Below, piece by piece: positions 10,571-64,000 of a stretch of DNA of 64,000 nucleotides. Source of the stretch: Candidatus Woesearchaeota archaeon (GTDB taxonomy: Archaea > Nanobdellota > Nanobdellia > Woesearchaeales > JAGVYU01); assembly GCA_018303105.1 (NCBI GenBank), contig JAGVYU010000061.1:3109-67108 (forward strand). Direction: 5' to 3'. The first letter of the stretch is position 1. Each line of letters starts with the position of its first letter. The position numbers and the translations under genes were made by a program. The notes beneath the pieces are model-generated. The model made no database searches. It saw only the letters and a program-made list of their open reading frames with translations, and was not told the origin of the DNA.

Positions 10571-10606
10571 GTGATATCTTTTGTTATCAGTTGATACTTT
10601 TTATTA

Positions 10607-14905: not shown

Positions 14906-15298
14906 ATGTGGGGTTTAGTGGGAAAGATATACCTGATCATTGTGCTTCTTTTTGTGCTGTCGTGCGCCCCTCTAAGCAGAGAATACGTTAACAATTGTGA
15001 ACAATCCGGGGGAGATTATACTTCTGGTTTCTCTGAAACCAAAGGCCAATATTATTTTTGTGAATGTCCAGATGGCAAATACGAATCAGGAGGGATCTGT
15101 CACGATATCGCTGCTCAACAGGTGGAACTCTGCGAAAAAGTATCTAACAAATTTGTAAACTGTGCGGTTGATGGCAGCGAGTGCATATGCACATTTATAG
15201 ATTCTGGAACAGTCTCTTTTTTACCAATTGGAGTATTGGAAACTTCAAATTGTGAATGCTTTGATGGAGGATGTGGATGCGGACCAAACCTAAACTAA
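14906..15298 (+). CDS. Small Cys-rich secreted lipoprotein
   Basis: A signal peptide ends in the lipobox LFVLSC. The protein has 16 Cys and overlaps the start of the giant gene. Confidence 0.4.
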   Translation: MWGLVGKIYLIIVLLFVLSCAPLSREYVNNCEQSGGDYTSGFSETKGQYYFCECPDGKYESGGICHDIAAQQVELCEKVSNKFVNCAVDGSECICTFIDSGTVSFLPIGVLETSNCECFDGGCGCGPNLN

Positions 15299-26305: not shown

Positions 26306-27388
26306 GTGACTACTATACAAATATTTAAAAAGAGGGAACACTTAGCAGCGCCTATGGTGGAAAAAACGTTCTTCAGGACAAGAAGTATCGCTGAGCGAAG
26401 GCATCTCCGCAGAAGGCGCGTCTATGGAGTAAAGAATATTGTTGAAAGAGTACTCCAAGAGATTGATCCAACAACAGACTGCCTTGAAGTCAGGGCGCAA
26501 TTGCTTCCCCCGACATTGCAGCATTTGCCATCTGCCATTGCATCGCGGAAGAACCTCAGGCATGGACATTATCTAAGGCTCCCCGTACCAAAAACATGGG
26601 AACAAGCGATTGCAATGAAGGAATCCCCGCTGGAACTTGTCGCACGCGAGATAGATAGCTTACACTTCGTCCAACCTGAAAACCTCCATTTTCTCGGATA
26701 CCAATGGACAGCTCCCCTCGGACGAGGAGTTGATAACAGGCCAAGGATGGCGCCATTCGCATTTATCGATGAGGCAGCGCGATTGCACGCATACATGCAC
26801 CAGGCGCCCGGAAGGGTGAAGGATTATTCTGCTGCCCAAAGAGTCCAGCGTGAAGGAGCGGTATTCATCGTCACGATTCCATCTAGAACAGAGAAAAAAC
26901 AACAGTACACGATACAACTCGCACATGTGCCAATACATGATGATCCGGCACGAAAAGCGTCCGTCTGGCTGCTTGGAACAACCCAACGAAGCGACGTGTC
27001 AGAACACGAGCTGCACCAGTTTGGATACCGGCTCATGCAGGACCAGAGGGGAAGCGACTTTTACATGTTCTATCCGCAAACCATTGCGGCATACTTTCTT
27101 ATAGCCGCAACGCTTGCGCGGCCACGCAAGGCAAATCTCATTCCAAGGCATACTTCACCATTTGCGATGCCGTCAAAAGAGCACGCTGAGTTTTATCGCA
27201 GGCTCCTTAACAATACGCTCATTTACGATGCCCAAGTAAAAGCGCCGGAACATCTCAGACCCTTGCATCTCGATGAAATCAGCAGGCTCATCGGAATCTA
27301 CATCGCGCGCGTTGGCGCTGAGCGCGCTATCTGGTACCAAGACCGCGACGGCGGCATCAAAGACTATGATTACAGCATACCACGATGA
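26306..27388 (+). CDS. Hypothetical protein, first gene of a GC-rich two-gene operon
   Basis: A 360-aa ORF with a 4-nt overlap (ATGA) onto the next gene. No recognised motif. Confidence 0.45.
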   Translation: MTTIQIFKKREHLAAPMVEKTFFRTRSIAERRHLRRRRVYGVKNIVERVLQEIDPTTDCLEVRAQLLPPTLQHLPSAIASRKNLRHGHYLRLPVPKTWEQAIAMKESPLELVAREIDSLHFVQPENLHFLGYQWTAPLGRGVDNRPRMAPFAFIDEAARLHAYMHQAPGRVKDYSAAQRVQREGAVFIVTIPSRTEKKQQYTIQLAHVPIHDDPARKASVWLLGTTQRSDVSEHELHQFGYRLMQDQRGSDFYMFYPQTIAAYFLIAATLARPRKANLIPRHTSPFAMPSKEHAEFYRRLLNNTLIYDAQVKAPEHLRPLHLDEISRLIGIYIARVGAERAIWYQDRDGGIKDYDYSIPR

Positions 27389-30351
27389 CGCTGCAGCACC
27401 TTGAGGCGATTGTTGAAGAAGTCGGGTATCGGTATGATCGACCGTGGATCTCGTTAAGAGGGCTTGGCGGATTCTATGTTGAAGGATATGAGCATTGGTT
27501 TTCCTCAAAACGGCTGACGCGCCGAGAAGCAAAGCAGCTCTATAAACGACTCAAGCAGAAGTTTGGAAGCCGTGTCATTTTTCCAGAGAGCGCAGAATGG
27601 GACGTGAGGAATAACTTCTACAACACGATTGTCGTACAGCTCCCGCGCTCCCAAAGCAGTCAACTCCCTGACGAATTCAGAGCTCAAGGAAGAGCCACTG
27701 CACATTACAAAAAACAGCTCAAGTACAGGACGATCACTCCGGGAATGGTTGCCGCGCTGGATGAACGCGCCGTTGAAATTCTCAAGAAGAGAGCAGAATT
27801 TGAACGAAAAAAAGAAGCAGTTGATCATCTTCTCAGTACAGCGCTCGCTCCTCACTATAAGGGGCAGGCTACTATGACTAAAGCAAAGGGAGATTGGTAT
27901 GACACCGTAACGCACGCATATGCTGGCGAATCCACCCTTGAGGAAGCTGCGTTGAATACTTCTTTTTTCAGAAAACTTGACACTGATCAACAACAAGAAC
28001 TCATGCGCATAACGCAAAAACTCTTTGAAGAGGTCATCTGTTTCAACAAACAACATGAAGCGTATGGCAAAAGAGTCATCACATTCAGGGATCGGAATCG
28101 ACAGAACGCGACCACGCAGAGAGCATACGAATTCCAGGCACATCTCAGAGAGGATGTGATTCAAAGCAAGCGACCCATGACCTTTGAGGAATGGCTGGGC
28201 CTCACCTTCCTCTTCAAGGATATTGAAATCCCAAGATTCACAGACGAAGATAGAGAAATTTCGCATGTCGGGATGCATTACATTGAGCAGGGCAAGCATG
28301 TCAAGGTCATTCACACGCTGCGCAACCCAGGCCGCAAACATATTAAGGGTTACAGCGTGCCTGTCCACGAAAACGAGGCAGCGCTCATTAACGCAGTCGT
28401 TGAATCCGTTCAAACCCATGACCCTTTCTGGTTCTCTGCATTCAACGCAAAATTTGATCTCATCCAATTGCGTGAAAATCTTTCTGGCGAGTGCTATGGT
28501 GTTTCAAACCGGCAGAGTCCTCCAACAAAAGATGTCGCAATCCAAATGTTTGAGCGCGTTGGAATTACGGGAAGGCAAGTCATCTGTGAATGGCTGCTCG
28601 CGCGCACTGGATACAAGGACCTACCGAACAGAAAATTCGAAATGGTCTCGCAAATGGCGCTCGGGGACGACGGATTGCACAAGAGCATCACCTATCCTGA
28701 ACAGGAAAGCCTCGAGCGTTTCGCAATGGGGCGAGGAAACCTCACAGACTCCGCCCGTGAGAAATTTCAAAAACGGTTTGGTAGGCTGCCGGGGCAATCC
28801 GTGCAGGATCGGCAGGATGCAGCATGCATGATTCTGGAATATCTAGTTGACGACGTTGAGGCGATGCCACGCTTCCTTGAAGAAACACCGTTCTTCAGGC
28901 ATGTACACGCAATCTCGAGCATTTTTGAGCTTGAGCCGACGCGCGCCGCGTACGGTCCCATGACTATGCGCAACGTGCTTGACCATTATTTCTGGAAAAA
29001 ATATCATGTTGATCCCGAGACCGTTTTCCCGATCACGAGCGCGACGATTGACTTCCAAGAGGGTCTAAAGGCTCATGTGGAAAAGCTTTTAGAAGAGCAT
29101 TTTCCCGTAAAACCGCAACAGGGCATTCATCATCATGTGGCAAAGGTACAGCTCGCACTTGGCCAGCTTTTTCTCCCCTTAATCAAACAAGGCATTGCTG
29201 ATGATCCGGATCTTTTGGCACGGGTCACTGAATTCGAGACGTATATCGGGGAGCAGCACGACGTGCGATCTCGCATGTTCCTTGAGGAATATCTTCTGAC
29301 ATGGGCAAATGAAATCTTGGTTGATTTCGCGCATTATGACCGGCCGCGCAGGCAGTTCGAGGAAAAACTGAAGACGTATGAAATCACGACGGGAGCGTTC
29401 GCGCAGCAATGGCATCGGATTACAGATGAACTCTTCGAGCGGGATCTTCAGTCGCTTCGACAAGGAAGAATCACGAAGAAAGCGTACAAAAAGCTCGAAG
29501 CGTATCATGATTTTGCGGATACGTACGGGCTTGATGAAGACGAGGCTAAAGAAATCTTGAACATCCGCGGCAGGATGATGACGGGCAAGGGGCTCGTCAT
29601 GGGAAGACATAACATAGACCCTGATGTTGTTCCCGCATTTCTCAAACAGCTCCAGTTCCAGGTCAATGTATTTATGCAGAGACATGGTATTGAACCCATA
29701 GGCCGAAGTTCCCATTTCTTTTATTTCATCAAATTTCCAGAAGGAGTAGACTCCCCACTCATCGTTGCTGATACTCTTGAGTCAGTTGTTGTCGCAGACA
29801 AAATATATTATCCAAAAGGAAGATGGATTTCAGGACTGCCACAGAGCGATGATCCAGCATATAATGCGTCTTTGTTTGAAATGCGCGTGTTTGGCGACTA
29901 TATTCGCGAACTCTGCCGCGGAGAAGTGCAACAAGCGGAATCACACATACAAAGGGAGCTGCTCGCATTTCCGCACAACACAGATCCGCACGAGCTTGTG
30001 GGAAAAATTAAATCGCGCAACACATTTTGGACATACGTGAAAAATCAGGAGGAAAAATTCATGTTTTTCGAGCCTGAAGAGTTCGCGAGAATTCATGAGA
30101 TTAACATGACTGAGATTTCAACGTATTCTGGTGTCAGCAAAGATGCCACATCGGGGCTTTTGATGTACACTGAGAACAATGAAGAGGGTGTTGCGATTCG
30201 TTCAACATTCATAGCTCCTCTGTTTGCTCTCGACATAGATTATGACCGATGGAGAACACATCTCAATGAGCGCTACAAAGAGATGAGCAGATGGAAACCA
30301 AAGAGGAAATTTGCAGAAGAAGGACAATTAGGTCTTACGTTGGTGCACTAA
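27385..30351 (+). CDS. Large (988 aa) hypothetical protein with DEDD-exonuclease-like motifs
   Basis: LTFLFKDIEIPRF is Exo I-like, with a DxE preceded by hydrophobic residues. About 75 aa downstream, WFSAFNAKFDLIQL is Exo II-like (NxxxFDxxxL). No Walker motifs are present. Codon usage is more GC-rich than the flanks. Confidence 0.5.
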   Translation: MTLQHLEAIVEEVGYRYDRPWISLRGLGGFYVEGYEHWFSSKRLTRREAKQLYKRLKQKFGSRVIFPESAEWDVRNNFYNTIVVQLPRSQSSQLPDEFRAQGRATAHYKKQLKYRTITPGMVAALDERAVEILKKRAEFERKKEAVDHLLSTALAPHYKGQATMTKAKGDWYDTVTHAYAGESTLEEAALNTSFFRKLDTDQQQELMRITQKLFEEVICFNKQHEAYGKRVITFRDRNRQNATTQRAYEFQAHLREDVIQSKRPMTFEEWLGLTFLFKDIEIPRFTDEDREISHVGMHYIEQGKHVKVIHTLRNPGRKHIKGYSVPVHENEAALINAVVESVQTHDPFWFSAFNAKFDLIQLRENLSGECYGVSNRQSPPTKDVAIQMFERVGITGRQVICEWLLARTGYKDLPNRKFEMVSQMALGDDGLHKSITYPEQESLERFAMGRGNLTDSAREKFQKRFGRLPGQSVQDRQDAACMILEYLVDDVEAMPRFLEETPFFRHVHAISSIFELEPTRAAYGPMTMRNVLDHYFWKKYHVDPETVFPITSATIDFQEGLKAHVEKLLEEHFPVKPQQGIHHHVAKVQLALGQLFLPLIKQGIADDPDLLARVTEFETYIGEQHDVRSRMFLEEYLLTWANEILVDFAHYDRPRRQFEEKLKTYEITTGAFAQQWHRITDELFERDLQSLRQGRITKKAYKKLEAYHDFADTYGLDEDEAKEILNIRGRMMTGKGLVMGRHNIDPDVVPAFLKQLQFQVNVFMQRHGIEPIGRSSHFFYFIKFPEGVDSPLIVADTLESVVVADKIYYPKGRWISGLPQSDDPAYNASLFEMRVFGDYIRELCRGEVQQAESHIQRELLAFPHNTDPHELVGKIKSRNTFWTYVKNQEEKFMFFEPEEFARIHEINMTEISTYSGVSKDATSGLLMYTENNEEGVAIRSTFIAPLFALDIDYDRWRTHLNERYKEMSRWKPKRKFAEEGQLGLTLVH

Positions 30352-40050: not shown

Positions 40051-40134
40051 GCGGGGATGCCGGAGAGGTCAAACGGGCTACGTTCAGGGCGTAGTAGCTT
40101 AGTGCTTACGGGGGTTCGAATCCTCCTCCCCGCA
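40051..40134 (+). tRNA. tRNA-Leu (anticodon CAG), class II with long variable arm, no encoded CCA
   Basis: The acceptor stem pairs GCGGGGA with TCCCCGC. The D arm is CCG/CGG around an 11-nt loop. The anticodon stem is CTACG/CGTAG with loop TTCAGGG, giving CAG with G37. The variable arm has an AGC/GCT stem. The T arm is GGGGG-TTCGAAT-CCTCC. The discriminator is A. Confidence 0.75.
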
Positions 40135-42285: not shown

Positions 42286-44910
42286 GTGTGTAGATTGAGA
42301 CTAAGTAAAGCGATTAAGAAGGTCGCTGCAGTCGGCATTGGTGCATCAATGATCGGCGCTACACTATTCGGTGCAGCAGCAGCAAACCTAAGCGAGTATC
42401 CGTCGCCGTTCGTCATGGACGGTAAGTTTAACGGCATTCTCGTTGTAGGAACTGGAGGAACGGATGCGGCCGGACTCGCAGCCGATATTATCGGCGTGAC
42501 CGACATCATCAGCAGCCTGCAGTTCGCAAGCACGACACCTGGAACCGGTGCGAAGAAATCAGTAACGGTACAGGGAGACTCGTGGAAAGTAGGAACCGCA
42601 ACGAAGAAGCTTGAGATAAGCAACGAATGGACGAACAGTTCTGGAAGCCGAGAAAACTTCAAGAGCCAAATTGATTTCATCGATGATGGTGATTTGGACG
42701 CATTGAAGTCGGGAAGTGTTGACAACACGAAAGGAAACGCGCAGTACAACCAATACTTGCGATTCCGCAACTCAACAACCGGCGGCGCGAAAGACACAGG
42801 ATATGTCGTGTACAAGGAAGATAGCGACAACAATGTCGGAGACTTCCTCTTCTTTAAGAGCGGCCAAGAAATAGCGCAATATGAGATGGAGTTTACGTCT
42901 TCATTTGACTCAGACGTTGAAGATTCCGGTGGAGCAGTTACTTCAACGGGAACGTATCTGTCTGATTACGAAGATGAGACGATCACCCTCTTGGGCAAGG
43001 AGTACACAATCGTGAAAGCACGAGTACCTACCGCTGGAGCTTGGCATGGCATGGAGCTCACGTTGATGGGTGGAGCCGTAAAGGACATCCTCCAGGAAGG
43101 CGAGACAAAGACGTATACTATCGCTGGCAAGCCGTACGAGGTTACTGTTGACGCGATCACGGACCAAGGCACAATCATTGCCAAGTTCACCGTGAACGGC
43201 GAGTCGACAAAATCCATTTCGGATGGTGACTCGGACAAACTTGCAGACGGAACAGAGATTGGCGTAACCGATCTTATTCCGAACGAGGCAGGAGACGTCA
43301 CGCAGGATCTCGTTGAGTTCTTCATCGGAGCCCAAAAGGTCGTGTTGAAGGATACAAACATCAGCGTTGTTGGAACAGGAGACACCGCGATCAAGGTGAA
43401 TGATGAAAGCATTGATGGATCTCTTGTAACCATTAAGGGTACACCAACAGCAACTGAGAGCCAGGTCAACAACATCCTCGTGAACATGGATGCTGATGAT
43501 GACTACTATGTCCCTGCAGGCAAGAAACTCAGTGAAGTCATTGCAGCAGAGGGTGATGAGAAAGAAGTTCTCTTCACGAACAACTGGGACATCGAGTACC
43601 TTGGCTTAGAGGAAGCAGAGGCAGAAGAGATCAGCATCAAGACGAGCGGCAAAGACAAGTATAGGCTCAGCTTTATGGACTGGGGCGGAAATCTTGTCCA
43701 AGCACCATTAGCGTACGCATCCGCAGCAAGTGTCCTGAAGATGGGAGACGATGATGACGACTTTATCATCAACGAAAGCCGAAACGTCAGCAAAGATGAC
43801 TACTTCATCATAACGGACGCGACGAAAGATGCTGGAGAGCGACCAACGTACCTGCTGCGCTACAAGGGAGCTGACAAGTCAACGGACGAAAACCCGAAGT
43901 TTAAAATCGAGAACGTCGGTTCAAAAGAGACTCTAGAAAAGACGTACACAGCAGCTGGCGGATCAGCTACGGCTACCTTCAATATTGGAGGAGGCTCATA
44001 TAAGGTTGAGAACCACGAAGCCATTACAAGCAACGACTTCTCAATCAAGGTCGACCTTGATGGAGACGGAACCATTAACGAGTCGAACGCGGTCTCAATA
44101 ACCACACGTGCAGGTGCCCAAATAGCGATAGCGGGCAACCAGACAGGTGGAGCCGCGACAATTGATCTTGCCGATAAGCTAACGGTAACGATCAGCACAC
44201 CTGATTCGGACGACTACGAGGACCTGACACCAGCAAACATCCAATACAACATCTCAGCAACGTCTGATACAGAAGTTGACCTGACAAAGTTGGATGTCTA
44301 TAGCCTTGTGACACCAGACGACGAGGACAACGTGCAGTACGGATACAACTCACTTGGTGCGTTCATTAAATACACAAACCCATCAAGCGACCCCGATGAG
44401 CTCATCATCGACTATCCAGAAGCGCAGAGACTGCCTCAGGTGTACATCACCTCGGGAGCATCCTCGAGTTCAGGTGGCGTAGGAGCGGGCTCTGAAAACG
44501 TCAACATCAATAAGATTGAAGTTGGCGCTGCAAAGCTCGACAAGGACGTCAGCTCAGCGGATCTCGCGGCGAACAACGTGCTATCCATCGGTGGATCTTG
44601 CGTCAACGCTATCAGCGCAGAGATCATGGGTCTTGAAGCAGGAACCTGTGGCGCGGCCTCAGGAATCCCGCAAAACAAGGCTTTGATCAAGCTGTTCGAG
44701 AACGGTGAGAAGGTTTCCATGGTCATCGCAGGTTGGACTGCTGAAGACACACAGAGAGCATCGAGAGTCCTTGCAAATTACGAGGACTATGCACTCAGTG
44801 GCATGGAAGTCGAAGTGACTGGAACGAGCTTGTCTGACATCTCCGTAGGAGCACCTTCCCCAGTGATGGAAGAAGAAGAAGCCCCTGCTGAAGACGAAGC
44901 AGCTGAATAA
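42286..44910 (+). CDS. S-layer protein of the Methanococcales/Thermococcales type (S_layer_N plus S_layer_C)
   Basis: A signal peptide is followed by ILVVGTGGTDAAGLAADIIGVTDIISSL, the S_layer_N hallmark. The C-terminus carries ALIKLFENGEKVSMVIAGWTAEDTQRASRVLANYEDY, the S_layer_C hallmark, and an acidic tail. A GGAGGTG Shine-Dalgarno-like element lies 5 nt upstream. The start may instead be the TTG at 42295. Confidence 0.8.
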   Translation: MCRLRLSKAIKKVAAVGIGASMIGATLFGAAAANLSEYPSPFVMDGKFNGILVVGTGGTDAAGLAADIIGVTDIISSLQFASTTPGTGAKKSVTVQGDSWKVGTATKKLEISNEWTNSSGSRENFKSQIDFIDDGDLDALKSGSVDNTKGNAQYNQYLRFRNSTTGGAKDTGYVVYKEDSDNNVGDFLFFKSGQEIAQYEMEFTSSFDSDVEDSGGAVTSTGTYLSDYEDETITLLGKEYTIVKARVPTAGAWHGMELTLMGGAVKDILQEGETKTYTIAGKPYEVTVDAITDQGTIIAKFTVNGESTKSISDGDSDKLADGTEIGVTDLIPNEAGDVTQDLVEFFIGAQKVVLKDTNISVVGTGDTAIKVNDESIDGSLVTIKGTPTATESQVNNILVNMDADDDYYVPAGKKLSEVIAAEGDEKEVLFTNNWDIEYLGLEEAEAEEISIKTSGKDKYRLSFMDWGGNLVQAPLAYASAASVLKMGDDDDDFIINESRNVSKDDYFIITDATKDAGERPTYLLRYKGADKSTDENPKFKIENVGSKETLEKTYTAAGGSATATFNIGGGSYKVENHEAITSNDFSIKVDLDGDGTINESNAVSITTRAGAQIAIAGNQTGGAATIDLADKLTVTISTPDSDDYEDLTPANIQYNISATSDTEVDLTKLDVYSLVTPDDEDNVQYGYNSLGAFIKYTNPSSDPDELIIDYPEAQRLPQVYITSGASSSSGGVGAGSENVNINKIEVGAAKLDKDVSSADLAANNVLSIGGSCVNAISAEIMGLEAGTCGAASGIPQNKALIKLFENGEKVSMVIAGWTAEDTQRASRVLANYEDYALSGMEVEVTGTSLSDISVGAPSPVMEEEEAPAEDEAAE

Positions 44911-56632: not shown

Positions 56633-56938
56633 TTAAGCATGGCGAATGCGTTCTCGTAAAGCATCGATAAGTTTATTCTGTGCCTTTGAGGAATGTTTCA
56701 TACGAATCTCTAGCAGATAGATAGAATCCCCCTCCACTTGAAAATATATTCTGAGAGGAGGCCGTTTGCACTTTGACTCATAGAGCTGATTATGAGCATC
56801 AAGAAGTTTTCCAGCTCGCGGACCGAGTGCATGTATCCGCAAGAGGTGTTTGCCGATGATCTCTTTGACTGTCGCACTTCTTGAGATTGCTTCCATCTGA
56901 CGCTGGACATGCTTATCGGTATATATCCTGAAAGGCAT
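56633..56938 (-). CDS. RelE/ParE-superfamily toxin-like protein with no recognisable antitoxin partner
   Basis: Size is about 100 aa. LRIYFQVEGDSIYLLEIRMKH resembles the conserved beta-strand core of RelE/ParE/HigB. No upstream antitoxin-sized ORF lies on the same strand. Confidence 0.45.
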   Translation of the reverse strand: MPFRIYTDKHVQRQMEAISRSATVKEIIGKHLLRIHALGPRAGKLLDAHNQLYESKCKRPPLRIYFQVEGDSIYLLEIRMKHSSKAQNKLIDALRERIRHA

Positions 56939-57860: not shown

Positions 57861-58497
57861 TTTTCTATTAAGCTTATTTTTTGTTTTAATAATGGCTATT
57901 AGCAAGTTTCTTATTATTTATTCATGGTGCCTAACTTCGCATATTGGCTCACTTTTCATATTGGGATATGCAAGACTGCTGCGTATGCTGAGAATCGCAG
58001 ATTGTTTGTCTTCAAATATTTTTTTACGCTAGTTATTAGTAAAACATGATTTTGGCATCGGGCATAATATCACTAGTTATTAGTATAAGATACCCAATAA
58101 ACTTTTCCACTAATTGTTATAGGAATTGTTCTTGATATATTCGATATTGTGCTTCTAATTTGATTCTGCTTTAAACTAGTTTTTGCTCTCACTTTTTATG
58201 CGTAAACAGCAAATTCAAACAATTGTTTTCATTATTGTAATTTATTAAATTATTTGTAGAAGAATTAGTAATAGATTATTTAAGTTATGATTAAAATATT
58301 TAGACTATTATATTTTTGAAAATTCCCTTTTTTAAGGCACATTGTATGCACATCCATGTCCAGAGTCACTTGGCTTCAAAATGTGGTTTATCGTCGACAA
58401 AAGGCACTGCCCAAAAAGCTTAAATAGGAGAAAGAATCAGCAGGCATTGGTAAGTACAAGTATTCTTGAGTGATTAACCATGAGGTGAGTTAAGTTG

Positions 58498-59137: not shown

Positions 59138-59806
59138 ATGTGGGTTGTTTTCATGGCTAGAACGTATAATGAGTATTATCTCGGATGGCAGGAGATTAAC
59201 AGGATCATAGCCTGTGCCAAGAACCTCAAAGAGCGGGTAATTCTAAAGATTCTGGCGAGAACAGGCATGCGAAGATTCGAGCTTGCAAATCTTCGCGTAA
59301 AAGACGTCGATTTTGACCGCAAGCGCATCTATATCAGCAAGGGAAAAGGAGGAACTGACGAGGATCCAAAATCGAGGATCGTTCCTATCGACGATGACAC
59401 CCTTCAAGATATCAAGTTTTATCTCGAAGGACGCCGGGCCGGAATATTGATCCAGAGCAATAAAAAAGCGCATGACGGCATCTCTTTATCCGCAATAAAC
59501 AGGATTACCGAAGGGGCTGCTGAACGGGCAGGAATCCGGAATCCTAATCCAAAGCTTAAGCATCTCAATCCCCATATCTTCAGGCACAGTTTCTCACGGC
59601 TCAGCCTCATGGAGGGCATTCCCTTCAACATTGTGCAGAAAATTGTTGGACACGCCGATGCGCGAACAACGCTGCAAATGTACGGAGTACCGTCGATAAA
59701 TGACGCTCAGCATATGTACAACGAAAAGCTGACTATGCGCTTTCACCAAAAAGTGAGCCTTGAGGAAGATAACAAGCTTTCAAAATTTACGTCTGACAGA
59801 TCGTAA
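59138..59806 (+). CDS. Minimal tyrosine recombinase/integrase (catalytic domain only)
   Basis: The catalytic residues are R in TGMRRFEL, K in ISKGKGG, HxxR in HIFRHSF, the second R in HADARTT, and the nucleophile Y in LQMYG. No N-terminal SAM-like core-binding domain is present. Confidence 0.8.
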   Translation: MWVVFMARTYNEYYLGWQEINRIIACAKNLKERVILKILARTGMRRFELANLRVKDVDFDRKRIYISKGKGGTDEDPKSRIVPIDDDTLQDIKFYLEGRRAGILIQSNKKAHDGISLSAINRITEGAAERAGIRNPNPKLKHLNPHIFRHSFSRLSLMEGIPFNIVQKIVGHADARTTLQMYGVPSINDAQHMYNEKLTMRFHQKVSLEEDNKLSKFTSDRS

Positions 59807-59882
59807 TCCTGTTTTCTTACTAGTAATTAAGAGAAAGTAGCTAAATGCATATTATAATAAATGCTTAAATATTTTAATAATA

Positions 59883-60434
59883 TTATCCCCAGTTTTGAAT
59901 GTTCTGCTGCTCAATATGTAAGAGATTAGACTTTGCCTGGACGGTCTTAAAATCTCGATCCAGACAGAAATAGACCGTATTACGCGTATATTTTTTCAAA
60001 ATAGGGATTCCTTTTCGCATGAGGTTGCCAATATAATCCTGAGCGGTTTTATCCGTAACGCCCAGCCCACGAGCAAGATCGTGATAAGTGAGAGTTCCCT
60101 TTGCTTCTTCCAATGCGTACAAAACCATGAAGATTTCCTTCTCCTGCTTGGAAAGCGGCTCAATATTGTATCTGGGAGCATTTTCTGGGACAAAAGTATG
60201 ATTCTTTTCAAGAAATATCTGTATTTTATCAATTCTTTCAGCTAATTTATCTAATTTTTGCTCTATTTGAGAAAAAAGCTCAAAATTCGCCTGTATTTCA
60301 TTAGTGTTCTCATTAATGGCATTTAAATGATCATCAAATTGTTCCTGAATACTTTCAAGAGCACGCTTCAGCTGCTGCGCAGCATCATTCACGGCGTCGT
60401 GATCTAAAACCTCTTTCCTTGAAATATTAAACAA
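59883..60434 (-). CDS. Coiled-coil protein with a C-terminal winged helix-turn-helix (putative regulator)
   Basis: N-terminal heptads are followed by TLTYHDLARGLGVTDKTAQDYIGNLMRKGIPILKK, read as helix-turn-helix plus wing. Confidence 0.45.
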   Translation of the reverse strand: MFNISRKEVLDHDAVNDAAQQLKRALESIQEQFDDHLNAINENTNEIQANFELFSQIEQKLDKLAERIDKIQIFLEKNHTFVPENAPRYNIEPLSKQEKEIFMVLYALEEAKGTLTYHDLARGLGVTDKTAQDYIGNLMRKGIPILKKYTRNTVYFCLDRDFKTVQAKSNLLHIEQQNIQNWG

Positions 60435-60524
60435 TGAAATCTTACCACCCCAACACTCTAAGCGCTTCTAAAATTCGCTGGTTTATATAGTTTTTGAAAT
60501 AAAGAGGAATTTCATTAATACTGG

Positions 60525-61310
60525 CTATTGGGCATGTTTAATGAGCTTATAGAAGTAAAGTTTTTCCTTCCCCTGTTTAACAACCTCGATTTCTTCCAAG
60601 GCCTCAAGCTCATCTAGAATGCGATAAAAGGAGCTTTTAGACGCTATTCCCTGTTCCTCAACGATCATTTCCCTTAATTTGAGGGCGGAAATTTGCTCAT
60701 ACTTGCGGATATATGAAACCAAGAGGTTTTTGACATACTCCTTTGACCTCTGTGTAATTTTTTTGATAAGTCTCTCCCGCAGGGGCATTCTTTTAGGTAT
60801 TGTGGTTTTTTCAATTTGATCAACTTTCTGCCGCAACTCTTTGATCTCGCTCAGATACCCAATCTGAGCTGCCATACCAAATTGATTGTGTGTGCCGAAT
60901 TTTTCAAGTTTAGCATTTATACTAATTACTTCAGAATCGATTTCCTTAATTTTCCTAAGCTCTTTTTCGTTCGAATAATAATAATCAACCAGTTGTTTTA
61001 GCTGAGATTGCATGTGAGGAATTTCGCGAACTAATTTGCGCAGATCCTCAATCTCACTTCTGACTTTTCTTACTTCATTTGCATGCTCTCCGATCTGAAT
61101 TTTTGCATGATTGATCAACGCTTCCTGTGATGAAAGTTTTGAAGCGCTTGATTGAACGGATTCTATCAGCATGCCTTGGTTATCATACAGCAGCTGCATC
61201 CAGGAAGCGACGCTCTGAACGTCTTGCTTCACATTCGCAAATGCGAGTTGAAGAGACTGCTGCATAGCGCGCAGTTCCTGAGCCTCTCTTTTTTTTGAAA
61301 ATAATAGCAT
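60525..61310 (-). CDS. Coiled-coil protein with a C-terminal winged helix-turn-helix (paralogous architecture)
   Basis: About 180 aa of coiled coil are followed by SKSSFYRILDELEALEEIEVVKQGKEKLYFYKL. The start codon abuts the iteron array. Confidence 0.45.
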   Translation of the reverse strand: MLLFSKKREAQELRAMQQSLQLAFANVKQDVQSVASWMQLLYDNQGMLIESVQSSASKLSSQEALINHAKIQIGEHANEVRKVRSEIEDLRKLVREIPHMQSQLKQLVDYYYSNEKELRKIKEIDSEVISINAKLEKFGTHNQFGMAAQIGYLSEIKELRQKVDQIEKTTIPKRMPLRERLIKKITQRSKEYVKNLLVSYIRKYEQISALKLREMIVEEQGIASKSSFYRILDELEALEEIEVVKQGKEKLYFYKLIKHAQ

Positions 61311-61640
61311 TTTTTCTCATTCCCAGTGTCATTTTGGGAATATTATGGGACTATTCTAGGACTATTCTGGGAATGTCTTTTACGTCAATAAATCAAGGTT
61401 GTTTATATACTTTTTGGGAATGTTATGGGAAATTCCTGGGAATATCATGGGAATGAGCCAGTGAATACGGTTTTCCCAATGAGATTAGACGACGTAAGAT
61501 CCCTTGTTCTTTGTTCTTAATCCCATTGGGAATGTGCTGGGAATGAGGCTTATCGACGAGGAATTACGTGCAATCACGCTGTAAACAGCGTTGGGAATGA
61601 AACTGGGAATGATAAGTATCGACGAGCTTATCAGTTTTAA
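61305..61640. repeat. Iteron array: at least 13 copies of (C/T)TGGGAAT(G/A) in both orientations with about 10-11 bp phasing, plus two copies of a TATCGACGAG...GTGCAATCACG module
   Basis: Examples are cattcccag (61309), ttgggaatatt / atgggactatt / ctaggactatt / ctgggaatgtc spaced 10-11 nt apart (61334-61366), and ttgggaatgtt / atgggaaattc / ctgggaatatc / atgggaatgag (61403-61446). Further copies are ttcccaatgag (61453), cccattgggaatgtgctgggaatgagg (61513-61538), and ttgggaatgaaactgggaatgataag (61581-61604). TATCGACGAG occurs at about 61542 and 61607, and TGCAATCACG at about 61560 and 61645. Confidence 0.65.
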
Positions 61641-62147
61641 TGGCGCAAGCATGTGCAATCACGAGGAAGGGAAAAATACGAGGGGGAACCTTCTGATTAA
61701 TCAACCAGAGACATATATGCACAAAAATGTGCAAGATATGGATTTGTTTACTATTTCTAAAATAACGGTGGGAAGATGACGCGCGTGTGAAATTTATGCT
61801 TTGAAACTTTAAGAGTATGTGCGTTACGTAGATCATAATGTCATCAGCTAAATTGAACTCTTGAATGCTTTTAATCCATTGAGTATACGAAACTATTTAA
61901 AGGGGGATATGGCTGTTTTTAAGGAGTGTGTGGTGGAAAAGTGAGTGCAACAGCCATAAGAAAGGAGAAGGACAGAAGCGCAATAATTGCTTTTAATACC
62001 GATTCTACTAATGATTATATAATGGGATCAAGAAAGGTTATATCTTTGAGTACAAAAAGTGAGAGTACATGCTGGGTGCTTTGCAATGAAGAGCCATGGA
62101 AACATTAAGCGATATGGCACAGAGAGTTATACTAATATTTAGCAGAA

Positions 62148-62792
62148 GTGAATGTGATGGATCAAAAAACCATGTCAAAAGGGGCTTTGGCAATAGCTCT
62201 AAGTAAACTAGATGTTTTTCCCGAAGCAAAAGTGAGAGTTGAGCAATACCCCACAGACCCTGAAGTTGCCGCTGAAGTGCTCTGGGATGCCCATATTGCC
62301 GGGGACATGGAAAACAAGGCGATATTGGACCTCGGAGCCGGAACGGGCATCCTAGGCCTTGGCTGCCTCCTTTTGGGAGCTCGAAAAGTGACATTCATCG
62401 ACGCTGATCAAGCGGCTCTGGCCATCGCTGAAAAGAACTATGCTAAGCTCAAAAGTGAGATTTCAGGAAAAGCTGCCTTTGTTGCGATGGATATCCACAA
62501 ATTCCAAGAGGCTGCAGACGTCGTCGTCGAGAACCCGCCCTTCGGCACAAAGACAAAGCACGCTGACAGGGAGTTTCTGGAGAAAGCATTCACATTGGCT
62601 CCCGTGATTTACACGTTTCATAAGGCATCAACAAGCGCGTTTATCAATCAGCTCGCTACGCAGAGAGGGTTTAACGTCGAGAAAACACAGCGTTTTGCGT
62701 TTCCGCTCAAAAGGACAATGCCGTTCCACGCCAAGAATATCAAGAGGATCTCCGTGGACTGCTTCCGATTACGGAAACCACAACGCTTTTAA
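62148..62792 (+). CDS. METTL5-like putative rRNA/RNA N6-adenine methyltransferase (COG2263 type)
   Basis: Motif I is ILDLGAGTGILGLG. The NPPF catalytic motif is VVENPPFGTK. Confidence 0.7.
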   Translation: MNVMDQKTMSKGALAIALSKLDVFPEAKVRVEQYPTDPEVAAEVLWDAHIAGDMENKAILDLGAGTGILGLGCLLLGARKVTFIDADQAALAIAEKNYAKLKSEISGKAAFVAMDIHKFQEAADVVVENPPFGTKTKHADREFLEKAFTLAPVIYTFHKASTSAFINQLATQRGFNVEKTQRFAFPLKRTMPFHAKNIKRISVDCFRLRKPQRF

Positions 62793-62815
62793 ACATTTAG
62801 CAGTTTCCTCAAATA

Positions 62816-63094
62816 ATGGAGCTTAAAGTTCTCGAGGAATCTAAAACAAAGCTACACCTTGAAATTCAAGGGTTAGGGCATGGATTCTGCAACATTCTCA
62901 AGCAGGAGCTGTGGAATGATGAGCATATAAAAATCAGCGCGTACTCATTAAAACATCCACTGGTTGGTCATCCTATGCTCATCGTGGAGACGGATACGAA
63001 AAAATCTCCGCGTGACGCTATCGAAGATGCGATTAAACGCCTTCAGAAGACGAATGAAAAAACGTCCAAGGAATTTGACAAAGCGTTTAAGTGA
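62816..63094 (+). CDS. rpoL: DNA-directed RNA polymerase subunit L (Rpb11 homologue)
   Basis: MELKVLEESKTKLHLEIQGLGHGFCNILKQEL...HPLVGHPMLIVETD is the RpoL alpha-motif dimerisation fold. Confidence 0.75.
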   Translation: MELKVLEESKTKLHLEIQGLGHGFCNILKQELWNDEHIKISAYSLKHPLVGHPMLIVETDTKKSPRDAIEDAIKRLQKTNEKTSKEFDKAFK

Positions 63095-63175
63095 TACTAT
63101 AACCCCCTTTTTCTATGCTTATAGCCCGTATTGGTATGCAAACGTATATTAATCACATAGTGCCTAACCGCATAT

Positions 63176-63625
63176 ATGTTCATTCGTGTAAAACGTATAA
63201 AGAAACAAGAATATGCGTACCTCGTAAAAAACATGTGGATAAAAGGCAACGTCAAACAGCGTGTAGTAAAGTACTTAGGCAAACTCATGCGAACGCCAAG
63301 CGAACACACGTGCACATTTCAAGAATTCCATCACATACAAAATCTCTCAGACTACGTTGAGCGCACGTCCCGCTTAAAAATCCTCCAGGATATAAAAAAA
63401 TGGGAAATCGCAGCACATGGAATCACCTCTCATCGTGGACAGGTGTATGCTCTTCATGACGGATATGTGTGCGAATATACGTTCCGCAAGCTCGCACAAT
63501 TCCAGCCCGGAGAAGATGATCGCGCATCCGGACTTCAGCTTGCCCAGCTTTTCGTACATGCGGGCTTTCGTATACCTCAAGACCTCTTTGTTTTGTATTT
63601 CCAGAAGCTGACAAAAGATATTTAA
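63176..63625 (+). CDS. Hypothetical protein
   Basis: A 149-aa ORF with a basic N-terminus. No motif recognised. Confidence 0.3.
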   Translation: MFIRVKRIKKQEYAYLVKNMWIKGNVKQRVVKYLGKLMRTPSEHTCTFQEFHHIQNLSDYVERTSRLKILQDIKKWEIAAHGITSHRGQVYALHDGYVCEYTFRKLAQFQPGEDDRASGLQLAQLFVHAGFRIPQDLFVLYFQKLTKDI

Positions 63626-63648
63626 AACAGCTCACGATTCGCAACGCT

Positions 63649-64000
63649 ATGGAAAACGTGCCTCGTCACATTGGCATCATCATGGACGGCAATCGCAGAT
63701 TCGCGAAACGCCTCATGCTCAAACCCTGGAAAGGGCATGAGTGGGGCCCAAAAAAGCTTGCTGAGATCCTGGAATGGTGCAAGGAGTACGATATTCATGA
63801 ACTTACGTTGTACACGTTCTCCGTCCAGAACTTCAACAGGCCGAAAGAAGAGTTTGACTATCTTATGAACCTCTTTCGGGAAGAATTTGACAAACTCAAA
63901 GATGATAAGAGGATTCATGAAGAACAGATTCGCGTGAATGTGATAGGCAGAACATGGATGTTTCCCAAAGATGTGCAGGATAAGATTAAAGAAATCATGG
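63649..64000 (+). CDS. uppS: Undecaprenyl/dehydrodolichyl diphosphate synthase (cis-prenyltransferase). The 3' part lies outside the window.
   Basis: HIGIIMDGNRRFAKR ... GHEWG ... ELTLYTFSVQNFNRP are the UPPS signature blocks. The frame is open to the window end. Confidence 0.85.
   Translation, partial: MENVPRHIGIIMDGNRRFAKRLMLKPWKGHEWGPKKLAEILEWCKEYDIHELTLYTFSVQNFNRPKEEFDYLMNLFREEFDKLKDDKRIHEEQIRVNVIGRTWMFPKDVQDKIKEIM

What the first reader, a model, noticed from the sequence alone, without database searches (positions are those of the whole stretch)
61305..61640. Helically phased array of at least 13 TGGGAATG iterons upstream of a coiled-coil/wHTH gene
In about 330 bp the motif (C/T)TGGGAAT(G/A) recurs at least 13 times in both orientations. 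Centre-to-centre spacing clusters at 10-11 bp, for example tgggaatatt|atgggactat|tctaggacta|ttctgggaat. Two copies of a second module, TATCGACGAG followed by GTGCAATCACG, lie at the distal end.

Phasing at one helical turn places all sites on one face of the DNA. This is typical of cooperative binding by a Rep protein or a regulator at plasmid or viral origins and partition sites. The array begins 1 bp from the start codon of 60525..61310, so autoregulation by that wHTH protein is an alternative reading.
Basis: seen in the sequence. Interest (0 to 1): 0.65.

Follow-up and report, generated by a model that had tools for sequence, protein, structure and literature searches.

The report
Conserved archaeal 11-bp protein-docking repeat array
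A real, strictly phased array of about 15 TGGGAAT sites lies just upstream of an uncharacterised DNA-binding gene pair, and the same array-plus-genes locus is kept on the chromosome of most of 83 loci examined in tiny Woesearchaeota-type archaea, so it is almost certainly that protein's docking platform, not a plasmid or viral origin.

Summary
TGGGAAT occurs 10 times exactly in 61319-61610 and 12 times in the other 63.7 kb. There are about 15 copies counting degenerate ones, 12 of them on the + strand, stepped by 11 bp in clusters of 4 + 4 + 2 + 2.

The window is the chromosome of a DPANN archaeon (Woesearchaeota/Nanoarchaeia). The locus is not a mobile element. In 83 loci examined (80 from the species genome set plus three metagenome contigs) the order RpoL-methyltransferase | array | 261-aa gene | 183-aa gene is kept. 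The same TGGGA(A/C)T motif is 33-fold enriched upstream of the gene (67 of 82 loci have at least 5 copies), oriented 963:155 and spaced at 11 bp.

Both genes encode a long helix plus a C-terminal winged helix. Neither belongs to a described family. The recognition helix SKSSFYR is invariant.

The arrays abut the archaeal TATA box. My best reading is a cooperative head-to-tail binding platform for the adjacent protein(s) that at least autoregulates the operon. Its design resembles ParR/parC and TubR/tubC centromere-operators and PhoB-type 7+4 repeats. No motor gene, Rep or Orc1 lies nearby.

Two further conserved motifs mark the locus: outward-facing AAAGTGAG clusters that run into coding sequence, and a TTATCGWCGATAA palindrome. 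These hint at a larger chromosome-level complex. That function is inferred, not shown.

The parts
61316..61326 (-). Proximal inverted copy (CTGGGAATGAG on the - strand) between the putative core promoter and the ATG at 61310
   Evidence: I7, I9. In the pooled loci 24 opposite-orientation copies fall within 0-50 bp of the start. Equivalent inverted copies were read in L001 and L056.
61332..61375 (+). Cluster A: four 11-bp units (TGGGAAT, TGGGACT, TAGGACT, TGGGAAT), arranged strong-weak-weak-strong
   Evidence: (D1). The same 4-unit proximal cluster with degenerate middle units occurs in L001 and L056.
61376..61411 (.). A/T-rich spacer between clusters A and B containing TTTATATA (61403-61410), a TATA-box-like element
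   Evidence: sequence. Comparable in length to the 39-bp promoter spacer of R1 parC (PMC2241845). Its role as a promoter is inferred.
61412..61455 (+). Cluster B: four 11-bp units (TGGGAAT, TGGGAAA, TGGGAAT, TGGGAAT). A possible degenerate fifth unit lies at 61459.
61472..61532 (.). Two inverted copies (61472-61478 and 61519-61525, - strand) lying within a 15-nt inverted repeat (arms 61473-61487 and 61518-61532)
   Evidence: (I3).
61526..61545 (+). Pair C: two units, 11 bp apart
   Evidence: D3.
61551..61560 (+). TATCGACGAG, a degenerate copy of the palindrome TTATCG(A/T)CGATAA
   Evidence: D4. The palindrome occurs in the array region of 36 of 83 loci.
61591..61611 (+). Pair D: two units, 12 bp apart
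61617..61626 (+). Second TATCGACGAG copy
60525..61310 (-). w261: a 261-aa protein with an N-terminal ~110-residue helix plus two further helices and a C-terminal winged helix (about residues 190-254). It is the presumed array-binding protein.
   Evidence: The family has 555 clusters at 50% identity. It is not in Pfam, NCBIfam or the PDB.
59883..60434 (-). w183: a 183-aa protein with helix 5-77 and a winged helix at 96-158. It always follows w261.
   Evidence: (83 of 84 loci).
61938..62459 (+). Right-hand cluster of four AAAGTGAG sites (61938, 62056, 62229, 62452). The last two lie inside the methyltransferase ORF 62148-62792.
57948..58195 (-). Left-hand cluster of two AAAGTGAG sites (57948, 58188) in the opposite orientation, in the 630-bp non-coding stretch after PAC2
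59138..59806 (+). XerA-like tyrosine recombinase consisting of the catalytic domain only. It is a frequent but not constant neighbour.
   Evidence: Present within 4 kb in 50 of 84 loci, in either orientation.

Best explanation
The array is the dedicated docking platform of the winged-helix protein encoded next to it (w261, 60525-61310), possibly together with its constant partner w183 (59883-60434).

**Proposed mechanism.**
- Each 11-bp unit is a 7-bp recognition element, TGGGA(A/C)T, followed by a 4-bp, mostly A/T, spacer.
- Winged-helix domains bind successive units head-to-tail along roughly one face of the DNA.
- The long N-terminal helices hold the subunits together, so that binding is cooperative and occurs in blocks, typically of 4 units.
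- The blocks start just upstream of the BRE/TATA of the w261-w183 operon. In the window and in some relatives one inverted copy lies between the TATA box and the ATG. Occupancy therefore feeds back on the operon's own transcription.

**What is shown.** The array, its phasing and its polarity are real. Its association with the gene pair is conserved across an order-level group of archaea. It is chromosomal. It sits at the promoter. The protein has a winged helix with an invariant recognition helix.

**What is inferred.** That w261 rather than w183 reads TGGGAAT. That binding is cooperative. The sign of regulation. Any role beyond autoregulation.
For: **Enrichment and phasing.**
- In the window the motif is enriched and phased against shuffles.
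- In 82 related loci TGGGA[AC]T runs at 11.2 per kb in the 760 bp spanning the 700 bp upstream of, and the first 60 bp into, w261, against 0.34 per kb elsewhere. That is a 33-fold enrichment. 67 of 82 loci have at least 5 copies.
- In the pooled loci 963 copies point away from the gene and 155 point the other way. Adjacent spacing peaks sharply at 11 bp (310 of 976), with harmonics at 22, 33 and 44. Copies lie 0-350 bp from the start codon.
- Runs of units have a mode of 4. Most loci have 2 clusters, and the gaps between clusters tend to keep the 11-bp register.

**Gene association.**
- The gene order is constant, and w183 follows w261 in 83 of 84 loci.
- In a metagenome-wide scan for the array pattern, every hit in a Woesearchaeota-like context had w261 beside it or ended at the contig edge.

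**Protein.**
- The AlphaFold model has mean pLDDT 82.7, with a C-terminal winged helix that matches Hop2, MarR, ArsR, Fur, BlaI and TubR domains.
- SKSSFYR is invariant in all 83 loci, matching the invariant TGGGA core.

**Promoter position.** A TATA-like box lies 20-39 nt upstream of the start in most loci. The nearest unit lies a median of 60 nt upstream.

**Precedents for the design.**
- PhoP binds 7-bp direct repeats with a 4-bp spacer (PMC4832192).
- R1 parC has two sets of five 11-bp repeats that act as both operator and centromere (PMC2241845).
- TubR (winged helix) binds tubC (PMC9178275).
Against: - No binding data exist.
- Protein and motif are both invariant, so there is no covariation to show which protein reads which motif.
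- The arrays lie mostly upstream of the TATA box rather than over it. Simple repression by occlusion is therefore not obvious, and activation is equally possible.
- Run lengths of 3 and 5 are common, so binding strictly by dimers on pairs of sites is not supported.
- A pair of genes that only regulates itself would hardly be conserved across an order. The two other locus-specific motifs are not explained by autoregulation.
Confidence: 0.65

Rival explanations
1. Chromosomal centromere-like or chromosome-organising site. w261 polymerised on the arrays forms a segrosome-type complex, as ParR does on parC, TubR on tubC, omega on its heptads, or SegB and AspA in archaea. w183 or another factor would bind the outward-facing AAAGTGAG sites that spread into the neighbouring genes. 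Autoregulation would be a by-product, as it is in those systems.
For: - The two-cluster 11-bp direct-repeat design upstream of the operon mirrors parC and tubC.
- Both proteins carry long helices suited to bridging or to acting as adaptors.
- The locus is conserved across the whole order at a fixed chromosomal position.
- AAAGTGAG occurs in 79 of 79 loci. There are 357 copies in one orientation and none in the other upstream, and an opposed cluster lies 2-4 kb downstream.
- The AAAGTGAG sites are kept inside coding sequence by codon choice: GTG 39 of 44, Ser always AGY, Arg always AGR. Bacterial parS sites likewise often lie within genes (from general knowledge, not checked here).
- Intergenic AAAGTGAG spacings show a periodicity of about 10.5 bp.
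Against: - No ParA, ParM or TubZ-type NTPase or other motor is present in the conserved neighbourhood.
- There is no sequence relationship to any known centromere-binding protein.
- The spacing statistics are not phylogenetically independent.
Confidence: 0.25
2. Replication origin or replication-control region built like an iteron origin. It would comprise a direct-repeat array bound by the adjacent winged-helix protein, an inverted copy at the promoter for autorepression, an A/T-rich unwinding segment, and a second set of polar sites (AAAGTGAG) for another factor. It would be comparable to plasmid Rep/iteron origins, or to Sulfolobus oriC3, which is specified by the winged-helix protein WhiP (from memory).
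For: - The order of elements is: gene, TGGGAAT arrays, an A/T-rich stretch (85-95% A+T over 60 bp, at -200 to -450 in most loci), then the AAAGTGAG repeats.
- An inverted copy lies next to the start codon.
- Synteny around the site is extremely conserved.
- GINS51 lies 12 kb away.
Against: - ORC1/Cdc6 is present in 206 of 208 complete Nanobdellota genomes, so a canonical initiator exists (preprint 10.64898/2026.05.13.725050). None lies in this 64-kb window.
- There is no excess of ORB-like elements (consensus recalled from memory).
- There is no skew turnover at 61 kb.
- Genes to the left point towards the site, not away from it.
- The protein has one winged helix and no Rep or AAA+ domain.
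- The A/T-rich stretch can equally be the divergent methyltransferase promoter.
Confidence: 0.12
3. Terminus or recombination module. The opposed AAAGTGAG clusters would act as polar sites, like Ter sites bound by the winged-helix protein RTP next to its own gene in Bacillus (from memory). Alternatively, the arrays would act as accessory architecture for the neighbouring N-terminally truncated XerA-like recombinase.
For: - The recombinase has only the catalytic domain (XerA profile positions 95-263 of 263). It lies within 4 kb in 50 of 84 loci.
- The two AAAGTGAG clusters face outwards around the gene pair.
- Genes to the left of the locus run towards it.
Against: - The recombinase is absent from the neighbourhood in 34 of 84 loci, and its orientation varies.
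- No dif-like element is conserved: no 9-mer other than AAAAGTGAG is shared downstream, and there is no suitable palindrome with a 6-8 bp centre.
- The w261-w183 segment never appears inverted.
- Genes on the right run away from the site.
Confidence: 0.07
4. Not a protein-binding site: a slippage-generated minisatellite, a G-quadruplex-forming tract, or a chance repeat.
For: Unrelated 11-bp TGGGAAT tandem arrays do exist elsewhere, in phage contigs, giant-virus contigs and eukaryote-like transposon ends. Four G3 tracts per cluster could in principle form a quadruplex.
Against: - Motif, orientation, register and position are conserved across proteins that have diverged to about 30% identity. 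A neutral satellite would not survive that divergence.
- The middle units of cluster A lack GGG in the window, L001 and L056, so a quadruplex is not the conserved feature.
Confidence: 0.03

Closest known systems
ParR/parC of plasmid R1 (type II partition centromere-operator)
   Same: - 11-bp direct repeats in two clusters (5 + 5 in parC; 4 + 4 here, plus extra pairs).
- The clusters are separated by a spacer of about 39 bp, which in parC holds the promoter. Here the spacer of about 36-40 bp holds a TTTATATA.
- The repeats lie directly upstream of the operon that encodes the binding protein, and in parC they serve as the operator (PMC2241845).
   Different: - ParR is a ribbon-helix-helix protein; w261 is a winged helix with a long helix.
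- parMRC encodes an actin-like motor. Here the second gene is another winged-helix protein, and no NTPase is conserved nearby.
- This locus is chromosomal and archaeal, not on a plasmid.
- In most relatives the TATA box is proximal to cluster A, not between the clusters.
TubR/tubC (type III partition)
   Same: A winged-helix protein binds short tandem direct repeats upstream of its own operon and forms a superhelical nucleoprotein filament (PMC9178275). Weak fold matches to TubR were found.
   Different: - There is no TubZ-like GTPase.
- There is no sequence homology.
- TubR has no long coiled coil.
- The tubC repeat unit is 12 bp (from memory).
OmpR/PhoB-family response regulators at pho-box-type sites
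   Same: 7-bp direct repeats separated by 4 bp, giving an 11-bp unit, bound head-to-tail and cooperatively by winged-helix domains (PMC4832192).
   Different: - There is no receiver domain and no Trans_reg_C match.
- The arrays are much longer: a median of 11 units, and up to 23.
- Only one locus was seen, rather than a regulon.
Iteron-type plasmid origins (Rep with WH1-WH2 domains)
   Same: - A direct-repeat array lies next to a winged-helix gene.
- An inverted copy lies at the promoter.
- An A/T-rich segment is adjacent.
   Different: - The units are 11 bp rather than about 17-22 bp (from memory).
- There is a single winged helix plus a coiled coil, and no Rep family match.
- The locus is chromosomal, and no relatives were found on plasmids or viruses.
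Archaeal SegB and AspA centromere-binding proteins
   Same: These are archaeal site-specific DNA binders encoded next to their sites that build superhelical or spreading complexes. The winged helix of w183 gives a weak fold match to AspA.
   Different: - SegB is a ribbon-helix-helix protein that binds palindromes and is paired with the ParA-like SegA.
- AspA works with ParB and ParA.
- Neither partner type is present here.

Membership tests
Iteron-type replication origin with Rep initiator | Adjacent gene encodes a Rep-family initiator (two winged-helix domains; Rep_3/RepA-type) | tested here: not met
   There is no Rep family hit in Pfam or NCBIfam. The model shows one winged helix after long helices.
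Iteron-type replication origin with Rep initiator | Located on an extrachromosomal or mobile replicon | tested here: not met
   Chromosomal synteny with rpoL, a methyltransferase, uppS and PAC2 holds in 83 loci. No relatives were found in viral, phage or plasmid collections.
Iteron-type replication origin with Rep initiator | Direct repeats next to an A/T-rich unwinding element | tested here: inconclusive
   A segment of 85-95% A+T lies beyond the arrays in most loci. It coincides with the promoter region of the divergent gene.
Iteron-type replication origin with Rep initiator | Supports autonomous replication | not testable with these tools
   This needs a replication assay.
Archaeal oriC (Orc1/Cdc6 with ORB elements) | ORB or mini-ORB elements (dyad TCCA..TGGAAA type) flanking an unwinding element | tested here: not met
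   TTCCASTGGAAAC with up to 3 mismatches gives 29 hits against 29.9 expected, and none cluster at the locus. The consensus was recalled from memory.
Archaeal oriC (Orc1/Cdc6 with ORB elements) | Adjacent initiator gene (usual, not obligatory) | tested here: not met
   No Orc1/Cdc6 domain was found in any large ORF of the window. The conserved flanks hold other genes.
Archaeal oriC (Orc1/Cdc6 with ORB elements) | Strand-composition switch or replication-coverage peak at the site | tested here: inconclusive
   Cumulative GC skew does not turn over at 61 kb, but only 2.5 kb lies to the right of the locus. Coverage profiles were not available.
Type II/III partition locus (parMRC, tubZRC) | Array of short direct repeats, in clusters, upstream of the operon that encodes the binding protein | tested here: met
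Type II/III partition locus (parMRC, tubZRC) | Cognate NTPase motor (ParM, TubZ or ParA) encoded in the same locus | tested here: not met
   The operon is w261-w183. The neighbours are a recombinase, PAC2, a methyltransferase and RpoL.
Type II/III partition locus (parMRC, tubZRC) | Homology of the binding protein to ParR (ribbon-helix-helix) or TubR | tested here: not met
   There are no sequence matches. Only generic winged-helix fold matches were found, with TubR at E about 0.1.
OmpR/PhoB-type tandem winged-helix binding | 7-bp direct repeats with a 4-bp spacer | tested here: met
   The unit logo is TGGGA(A/C)T plus 4 nt, with an 11-bp step.
OmpR/PhoB-type tandem winged-helix binding | Receiver domain plus Trans_reg_C effector domain | tested here: not met
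Autoregulated archaeal transcription factor with operator at its own promoter | Binding motifs positioned at the BRE/TATA/start region of the factor's own gene | tested here: met
   A TATA-like box lies 20-39 nt upstream of the start. The arrays begin a median of 60 nt upstream. In the pooled loci 24 opposite-orientation copies lie within 0-50 bp of the start.
Autoregulated archaeal transcription factor with operator at its own promoter | Specific binding of the protein to the motif and an effect on transcription | not testable with these tools
   This needs EMSA or footprinting and in vitro transcription.

The most novel reading that the evidence does not exclude
The locus is the cis-acting core of a lineage-specific chromosome-maintenance system of Woesearchaeales. 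In this reading a new family of coiled-coil/winged-helix proteins polymerises on 11-bp arrays. A second factor, w183 or another protein, reads outward-facing AAAGTGAG sites that are kept even inside neighbouring genes. Together they would form a centromere-like segrosome, or an origin- or terminus-control complex that is not tied to orc1.
Probability: 0.3. Interest if true: 0.8.

Novelty: new variant of a known kind. Interest (0 to 1): 0.6.

Why it matters
DPANN archaea are uncultivated, have tiny genomes and few regulators, and nothing is known about how they organise, segregate or time their chromosomes.

This locus gives a concrete, order-wide conserved pairing of cis-elements and proteins:
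- a new protein family (555 clusters at 50% identity, in no family database);
- a precisely phased binding array;
- two further motifs, one of which is maintained inside a coding gene by codon choice.

That makes a testable entry point. Recombinant w261 and w183 with synthetic arrays can be assayed in vitro. The position of the locus relative to replication-coverage peaks can be read from the newly available complete genomes.

If it proves to be only an autoregulated transcription factor, it still defines that factor's operator and a textbook-clear archaeal example of head-to-tail winged-helix binding.

Tried and rejected
- **Mobile element, plasmid or virus.** Rejected by conserved chromosomal synteny and by the absence of relatives in IMG/VR, INPHARED, PLSDB and PHROGs.
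- **Viral contigs with the same 11-bp pattern.** 20 were found. They are unrelated: phage repeats upstream of a gene next to the large terminase subunit (L086 and similar loci), phage tandem repeats I took to be coding (L087 and similar), and giant-virus satellites.
- **Metagenome scan for the pattern.** 69 of 80 loci are eukaryote-like transposon ends or minisatellites, or phage repeats. The 11 in a Woesearchaeota-like context all carry the w261 locus genes; in one (L173) the array lies at the contig end, so w261 itself is not on the contig.
- **Structured RNA.** No Rfam family matched at the gathering threshold or at E <= 5. The left non-coding region folds no better than shuffles (z = -0.08).
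- **Repeat-encoded peptide.** An 11-bp period is not a multiple of 3, and only a spurious 53-aa ORF overlaps the array.
- **G-quadruplex.** The middle units lack GGG.
- **w261 and w183 as paralogues.** BLASTP gave nothing, and hhalign gave a probability of 5.5%.
- **Covariation between recognition helix and motif.** Impossible, because both are invariant.
- **Even-only run lengths, as expected for dimer-per-pair binding.** Not seen.
- **dif-like site near the recombinase.** None found.
- **Canonical ORB elements.** At chance level.
Not conserved.
- **AlphaFold-database fold search.** The library was unavailable.
- **Literature.** No paper in the searchable library mentions the motif in this context or a Woesearchaeota origin.
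Full report
**1. The observation**

Reading 59700-64000 and scanning the whole window confirms a dense motif cluster.
- TGGGAAT occurs exactly 10 times between 61319 and 61610, against 12 times in the other 63.7 kb.
- With one mismatch there are 14 hits in 330 bp. The next densest window has 6.
- The in-phase TAGGACT at 61357 brings the total to 15.
- Dinucleotide shuffles of 61305-61640 give 2.1 +- 1.4 hits (maximum 8 of 2000).
- The lag-11 identity is 0.348, against 0.265 +- 0.024 in shuffles. No shuffle reaches it, and harmonics appear at 22 and 33.
- Tandem Repeats Finder independently reports 11-bp arrays at 61331-61372 and 61415-61455.

The anatomy is as follows.

| Element | Unit positions | Strand / step |
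|---|---|---|
| Cluster A | 61335, 61346, 61357, 61368 | +, 11 bp |
| Cluster B | 61415, 61426, 61437, 61448 | +, 11 bp |
| Pair C | 61527, 61538 | +, 11 bp |
| Pair D | 61592, 61604 | +, 12 bp |
| Inverted copies | 61319, 61472, 61519 | - |

A spacer of about 38 bp between clusters A and B contains TTTATATA (61403-61410).

- The step is 11 bp, not 10-11 bp.
- Twelve of the 15 copies share one orientation.
- The nearest motif core starts 9 bp from the ATG.

**2. What genome this is**

Pfam annotation of the neighbours gives RNA polymerase subunit L, an MTS-type methyltransferase, PAC2, an RNase H-like protein and a tyrosine recombinase. Further along the window lie GINS51, glycosyltransferases, TPR proteins and radical SAM enzymes. 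This is an archaeal chromosome.

Homologues of the 261-aa protein are all hypothetical proteins of Woesearchaeota or Nanoarchaeota. The family has 555 clusters at 50% identity in 1.84 billion representatives. It has no consistent Pfam, NCBIfam, PHROG or PDB match.

**3. The locus is conserved; it is not a mobile element**

Three metagenome contigs with orthologues at 43-48% identity keep this order: methyltransferase, a long intergenic region, w261, w183, recombinase, then PAC2. Their intergenic regions carry the same TGGGAAT/TGGGACT arrays at 11 bp.

A scan of one genome per species found 190 species encoding a relative. I examined the best 80 loci.
- Synteny p149-RpoL-methyltransferase | w261-w183 holds almost everywhere. 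w183 follows w261 in 83 of 84 loci.
- TGGGA[AC]T runs at 11.2 per kb in the 760 bp spanning the 700 bp upstream of, and the first 60 bp into, w261, against 0.34 per kb in the rest of the loci. That is 33-fold. 67 of 82 loci have at least 5 copies.
- In the pooled loci 963 copies point away from the gene and 155 towards it. The adjacent same-strand distance peaks at 11 bp (310 of 976), with harmonics at 22, 33 and 44. Copies lie 0-350 bp from the start.
- Chains of units have a modal length of 4. Most loci have two clusters and a median of 11 units (up to 23). Gaps between clusters peak at 33-34, 22 and 55-57 bp, so the register tends to be kept.
- The proximal cluster repeatedly has four units with degenerate middle ones: in the window, L001 and L056.

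No relative of w261 exists in IMG/VR, in phage records or in plasmid records. Other TGGGAAT 11-bp arrays in viral and metagenome collections are unrelated phage, giant-virus or eukaryote-like repeats. The 11 hits in a Woesearchaeota-like context all carry the w261 locus genes; in one (L173) the array lies at the contig end, so w261 itself is not on the contig.

**4. The proteins**

- **w261.** The model has mean pLDDT 82.7: a helix of about 110 residues, two shorter helices and a C-terminal winged helix. Fold matches are generic winged helices: the Hop2 WH domain, MarR, ArsR, Fur, BlaI, and weakly TubR. The C-terminal domain is the most conserved part. The presumed recognition helix SKSSFYR is identical in all 83 loci, as is the TGGGA core.
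- **w183.** It has the same plan: helix 5-77 and a winged helix at 96-158. It carries an invariant N-terminal motif, HLxAINENTNEIQxN. Its fold matches are to ArsR/MarR-type regulators and weakly to AspA.
- The two proteins are not demonstrably paralogous.

**5. Position relative to the promoter**

A TATA-like box lies 20-39 nt upstream of the start codon in most loci. This implies a leaderless or short-leader mRNA. The nearest outward-facing unit lies a median of 60 nt upstream, immediately beyond the expected BRE. In the pooled loci 24 opposite-orientation copies fall within 0-50 bp of the start. In the window (61316-61326), L001 and L056 one such copy lies between the TATA box and the ATG.

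In the window the proximal TATA is weak, and a canonical TTTATATA lies between clusters A and B. This resembles R1 parC, where two sets of five 11-bp repeats flank a 39-bp promoter spacer and act as both operator and centromere (PMC2241845).

**6. Most likely mechanism**

The 7 + 4 bp unit, its strict polarity and its 11-bp step are what winged-helix domains use when they bind head-to-tail. PhoP, for example, binds 7-bp direct repeats with a 4-bp spacer (PMC4832192).

I therefore propose the following.
- Winged-helix domains of w261 occupy successive units along roughly one face of the DNA.
- The long helices couple them into cooperative blocks.
- Occupancy next to the core promoter, and in the window and some relatives over it, feeds back on w261-w183 transcription.

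The association, phasing, polarity, promoter position and fold are shown. Binding, cooperativity, which of the two proteins reads the motif, and the sign of regulation are inferred.

**7. More is going on at this locus**

Two other motifs are locus-specific.

*AAAGTGAG (extended AAAAGTGAGRGTT).*
- In the window 7 of 8 copies lie between 57.9 and 62.5 kb.
- All 79 loci with enough sequence have it within 1.2 kb upstream of w261: 342 copies, with the reverse orientation present in only one locus.
- Density is 3-6 per kb at -250 to -1250, against about 0.05 per kb in the background. A weaker, opposed cluster lies 2-4.25 kb downstream, next to PAC2 (77 against 27 copies). The two clusters therefore face outwards around the gene pair.
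- Several copies lie inside the methyltransferase ORF in two reading frames.
- At the PKV[R/S]xEQY site, Val is GTG in 39 of 44 genes (background 35%). Ser is always AGY (12 of 12; background 49%). Arg is always AGR (29 of 29; background 69%). The residue toggles between Arg and Ser while the nucleotides stay. This points to a constraint at the DNA level, with the caveat that the species are not independent.
- Intergenic copies are spaced with a periodicity of about 10.5 bp (same caveat).

*The palindrome TTATCG(A/T)CGATAA.*
- It occurs among the arrays in 36 of 83 loci.
- The window's two TATCGACGAG copies are degenerate versions.

In addition, an A/T-rich stretch (85-95% A+T over 60 bp) separates the arrays from the AAAGTGAG cluster in most loci (an example is L019).

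**8. Rival readings**

- **Centromere-like.** The parC- and tubC-like design, the long helices, the order-wide conservation and the in-gene sites fit a centromere-like or chromosome-organising complex. But no motor NTPase is conserved nearby.
- **Origin.** The gene / array / A+T-rich / second-repeat order also resembles an iteron-type origin. Against this:
  - ORC1/Cdc6 is present in 206 of 208 complete Nanobdellota genomes.
  - None lies in this window.
  - ORB-like elements are at chance level.
  - Skew does not turn at the site.
  - Genes to the left point towards it.
- **Terminus or Xer accessory.** This is suggested by the opposed polar sites and by the XerA-like recombinase that lacks its N-terminal domain. 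But the recombinase is missing from 34 of 84 neighbourhoods, no dif-like element is conserved, and the segment is never inverted.
- **Neutral satellite or G-quadruplex.** Excluded by the conservation pattern and by the non-G3 middle units.

**9. Comparison and novelty**

By design the array works like partition centromere-operators (parC, tubC) and like PhoB-type tandem sites. It is a member of none of these families, because their defining proteins and partners were tested and are absent.

The protein family and the arrays are undescribed in the searchable literature. I rate the finding a new variant of a known kind: a chromosomal, order-wide conserved winged-helix array locus in DPANN archaea with a three-motif architecture. 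Its function beyond autoregulation is open.

The decisive tests are in vitro binding assays and placing the locus on replication-coverage and skew profiles of the complete genomes now available.

Noticed in passing
window 61938, 62056, 62229, 62452 (+); 57948, 58188 (-); 59750 (+); loci L001-L084: AAAGTGAG (extended AAAAGTGAGRGTT) is a second locus-specific motif. It is present in 79 of 79 related loci, strictly oriented, and forms two outward-facing clusters around the gene pair. Inside the methyltransferase ORF it is maintained by codon choice in two reading frames. Its function is unknown.
   Followed up: partly
window 61551-61560 and 61617-61626; array region of 36 of 83 loci: A palindrome TTTATCG(A/T)CGATAAA lies among the TGGGAAT arrays in many relatives. 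The window has two degenerate half-conserved copies. It is a likely site for a dimeric factor, which has not been assigned.
   Followed up: partly
window 59138-59806 (+): This is an XerA-like tyrosine recombinase of 222 aa. It matches only profile positions 95-263 of the archaeal XerA model, so it has no N-terminal core-binding domain. The orthologues read in L001 and L004 are similarly short (221 and 212 aa), and a recombinase match lies within 4 kb in 50 of 84 loci.
   Followed up: partly
window 57861-58494: A 630-bp non-coding stretch after PAC2 carries two TACTAATAACTAG copies, two AAAGTGAG copies and GTTAGGCAC. The composite AAAAGTGAG-N14-25-GTTAGGCAC recurs in L001, L019 and L058. There is no Rfam hit and no RNA-fold signal.
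   Followed up: partly
window 63176-63625 (+): A 149-aa protein with no family match is conserved in synteny (72 of 84 loci) beside rpoL.
   Followed up: no
window 40051-40134 (+): ARAGORN calls a tRNA-Leu(CAG) of 84 nt. The Rfam gathering-threshold scan of the whole window listed no family at all.
   Followed up: no
window 15271-20067, 27385-30351, 42286-44910 (+): Three very large ORFs (1598, 988 and 874 aa) have no Pfam match at E <= 1e-5.
   Followed up: no
window 10551-10612: A 20-bp tandem repeat (TTGATACTTTTTATTATCAC, 3.1 copies) spans the junction between the 9290-10570 and 10607-11683 genes.
   Followed up: no
window 56633-56938 (-): A weak ParE-toxin-like ORF (E = 0.022) lies near the locus. 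A ParE_toxin gene also lies near the locus in L001 and L002.
   Followed up: no
L086, L097, L099, L101 (IMG/VR phage contigs): Bacteriophage contigs carry a six-unit TGGGAAT 11-bp array. In L086, the one contig whose context I read, the array lies upstream of the gene next to the large terminase subunit. This is possibly a packaging or replication site of its own. It is unrelated to the archaeal locus.
   Followed up: partly
L106, L108, L116, L117, L124, L136, L180 (metagenome contigs): A repeated element begins TAGAGATGTGCATGGGAATGGGATTCCCA and is followed by TGGGAAT/ATTCCCA runs. It looks like the terminal region of a eukaryotic transposon in host-associated metagenomes.
   Followed up: no
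L041, L045, L057, L058, L061, L062, L065, L070-L072, L076, L077, L080, L083: In a subgroup of loci no methyltransferase match lies between rpoL and w261. These loci have the largest arrays (up to 23 units spread over about 450 bp). In L058 the gene next to the array encodes a protein that looks RsmE-like by eye and contains AAAGTGAG and GTTAGGCAC.
   Followed up: partly
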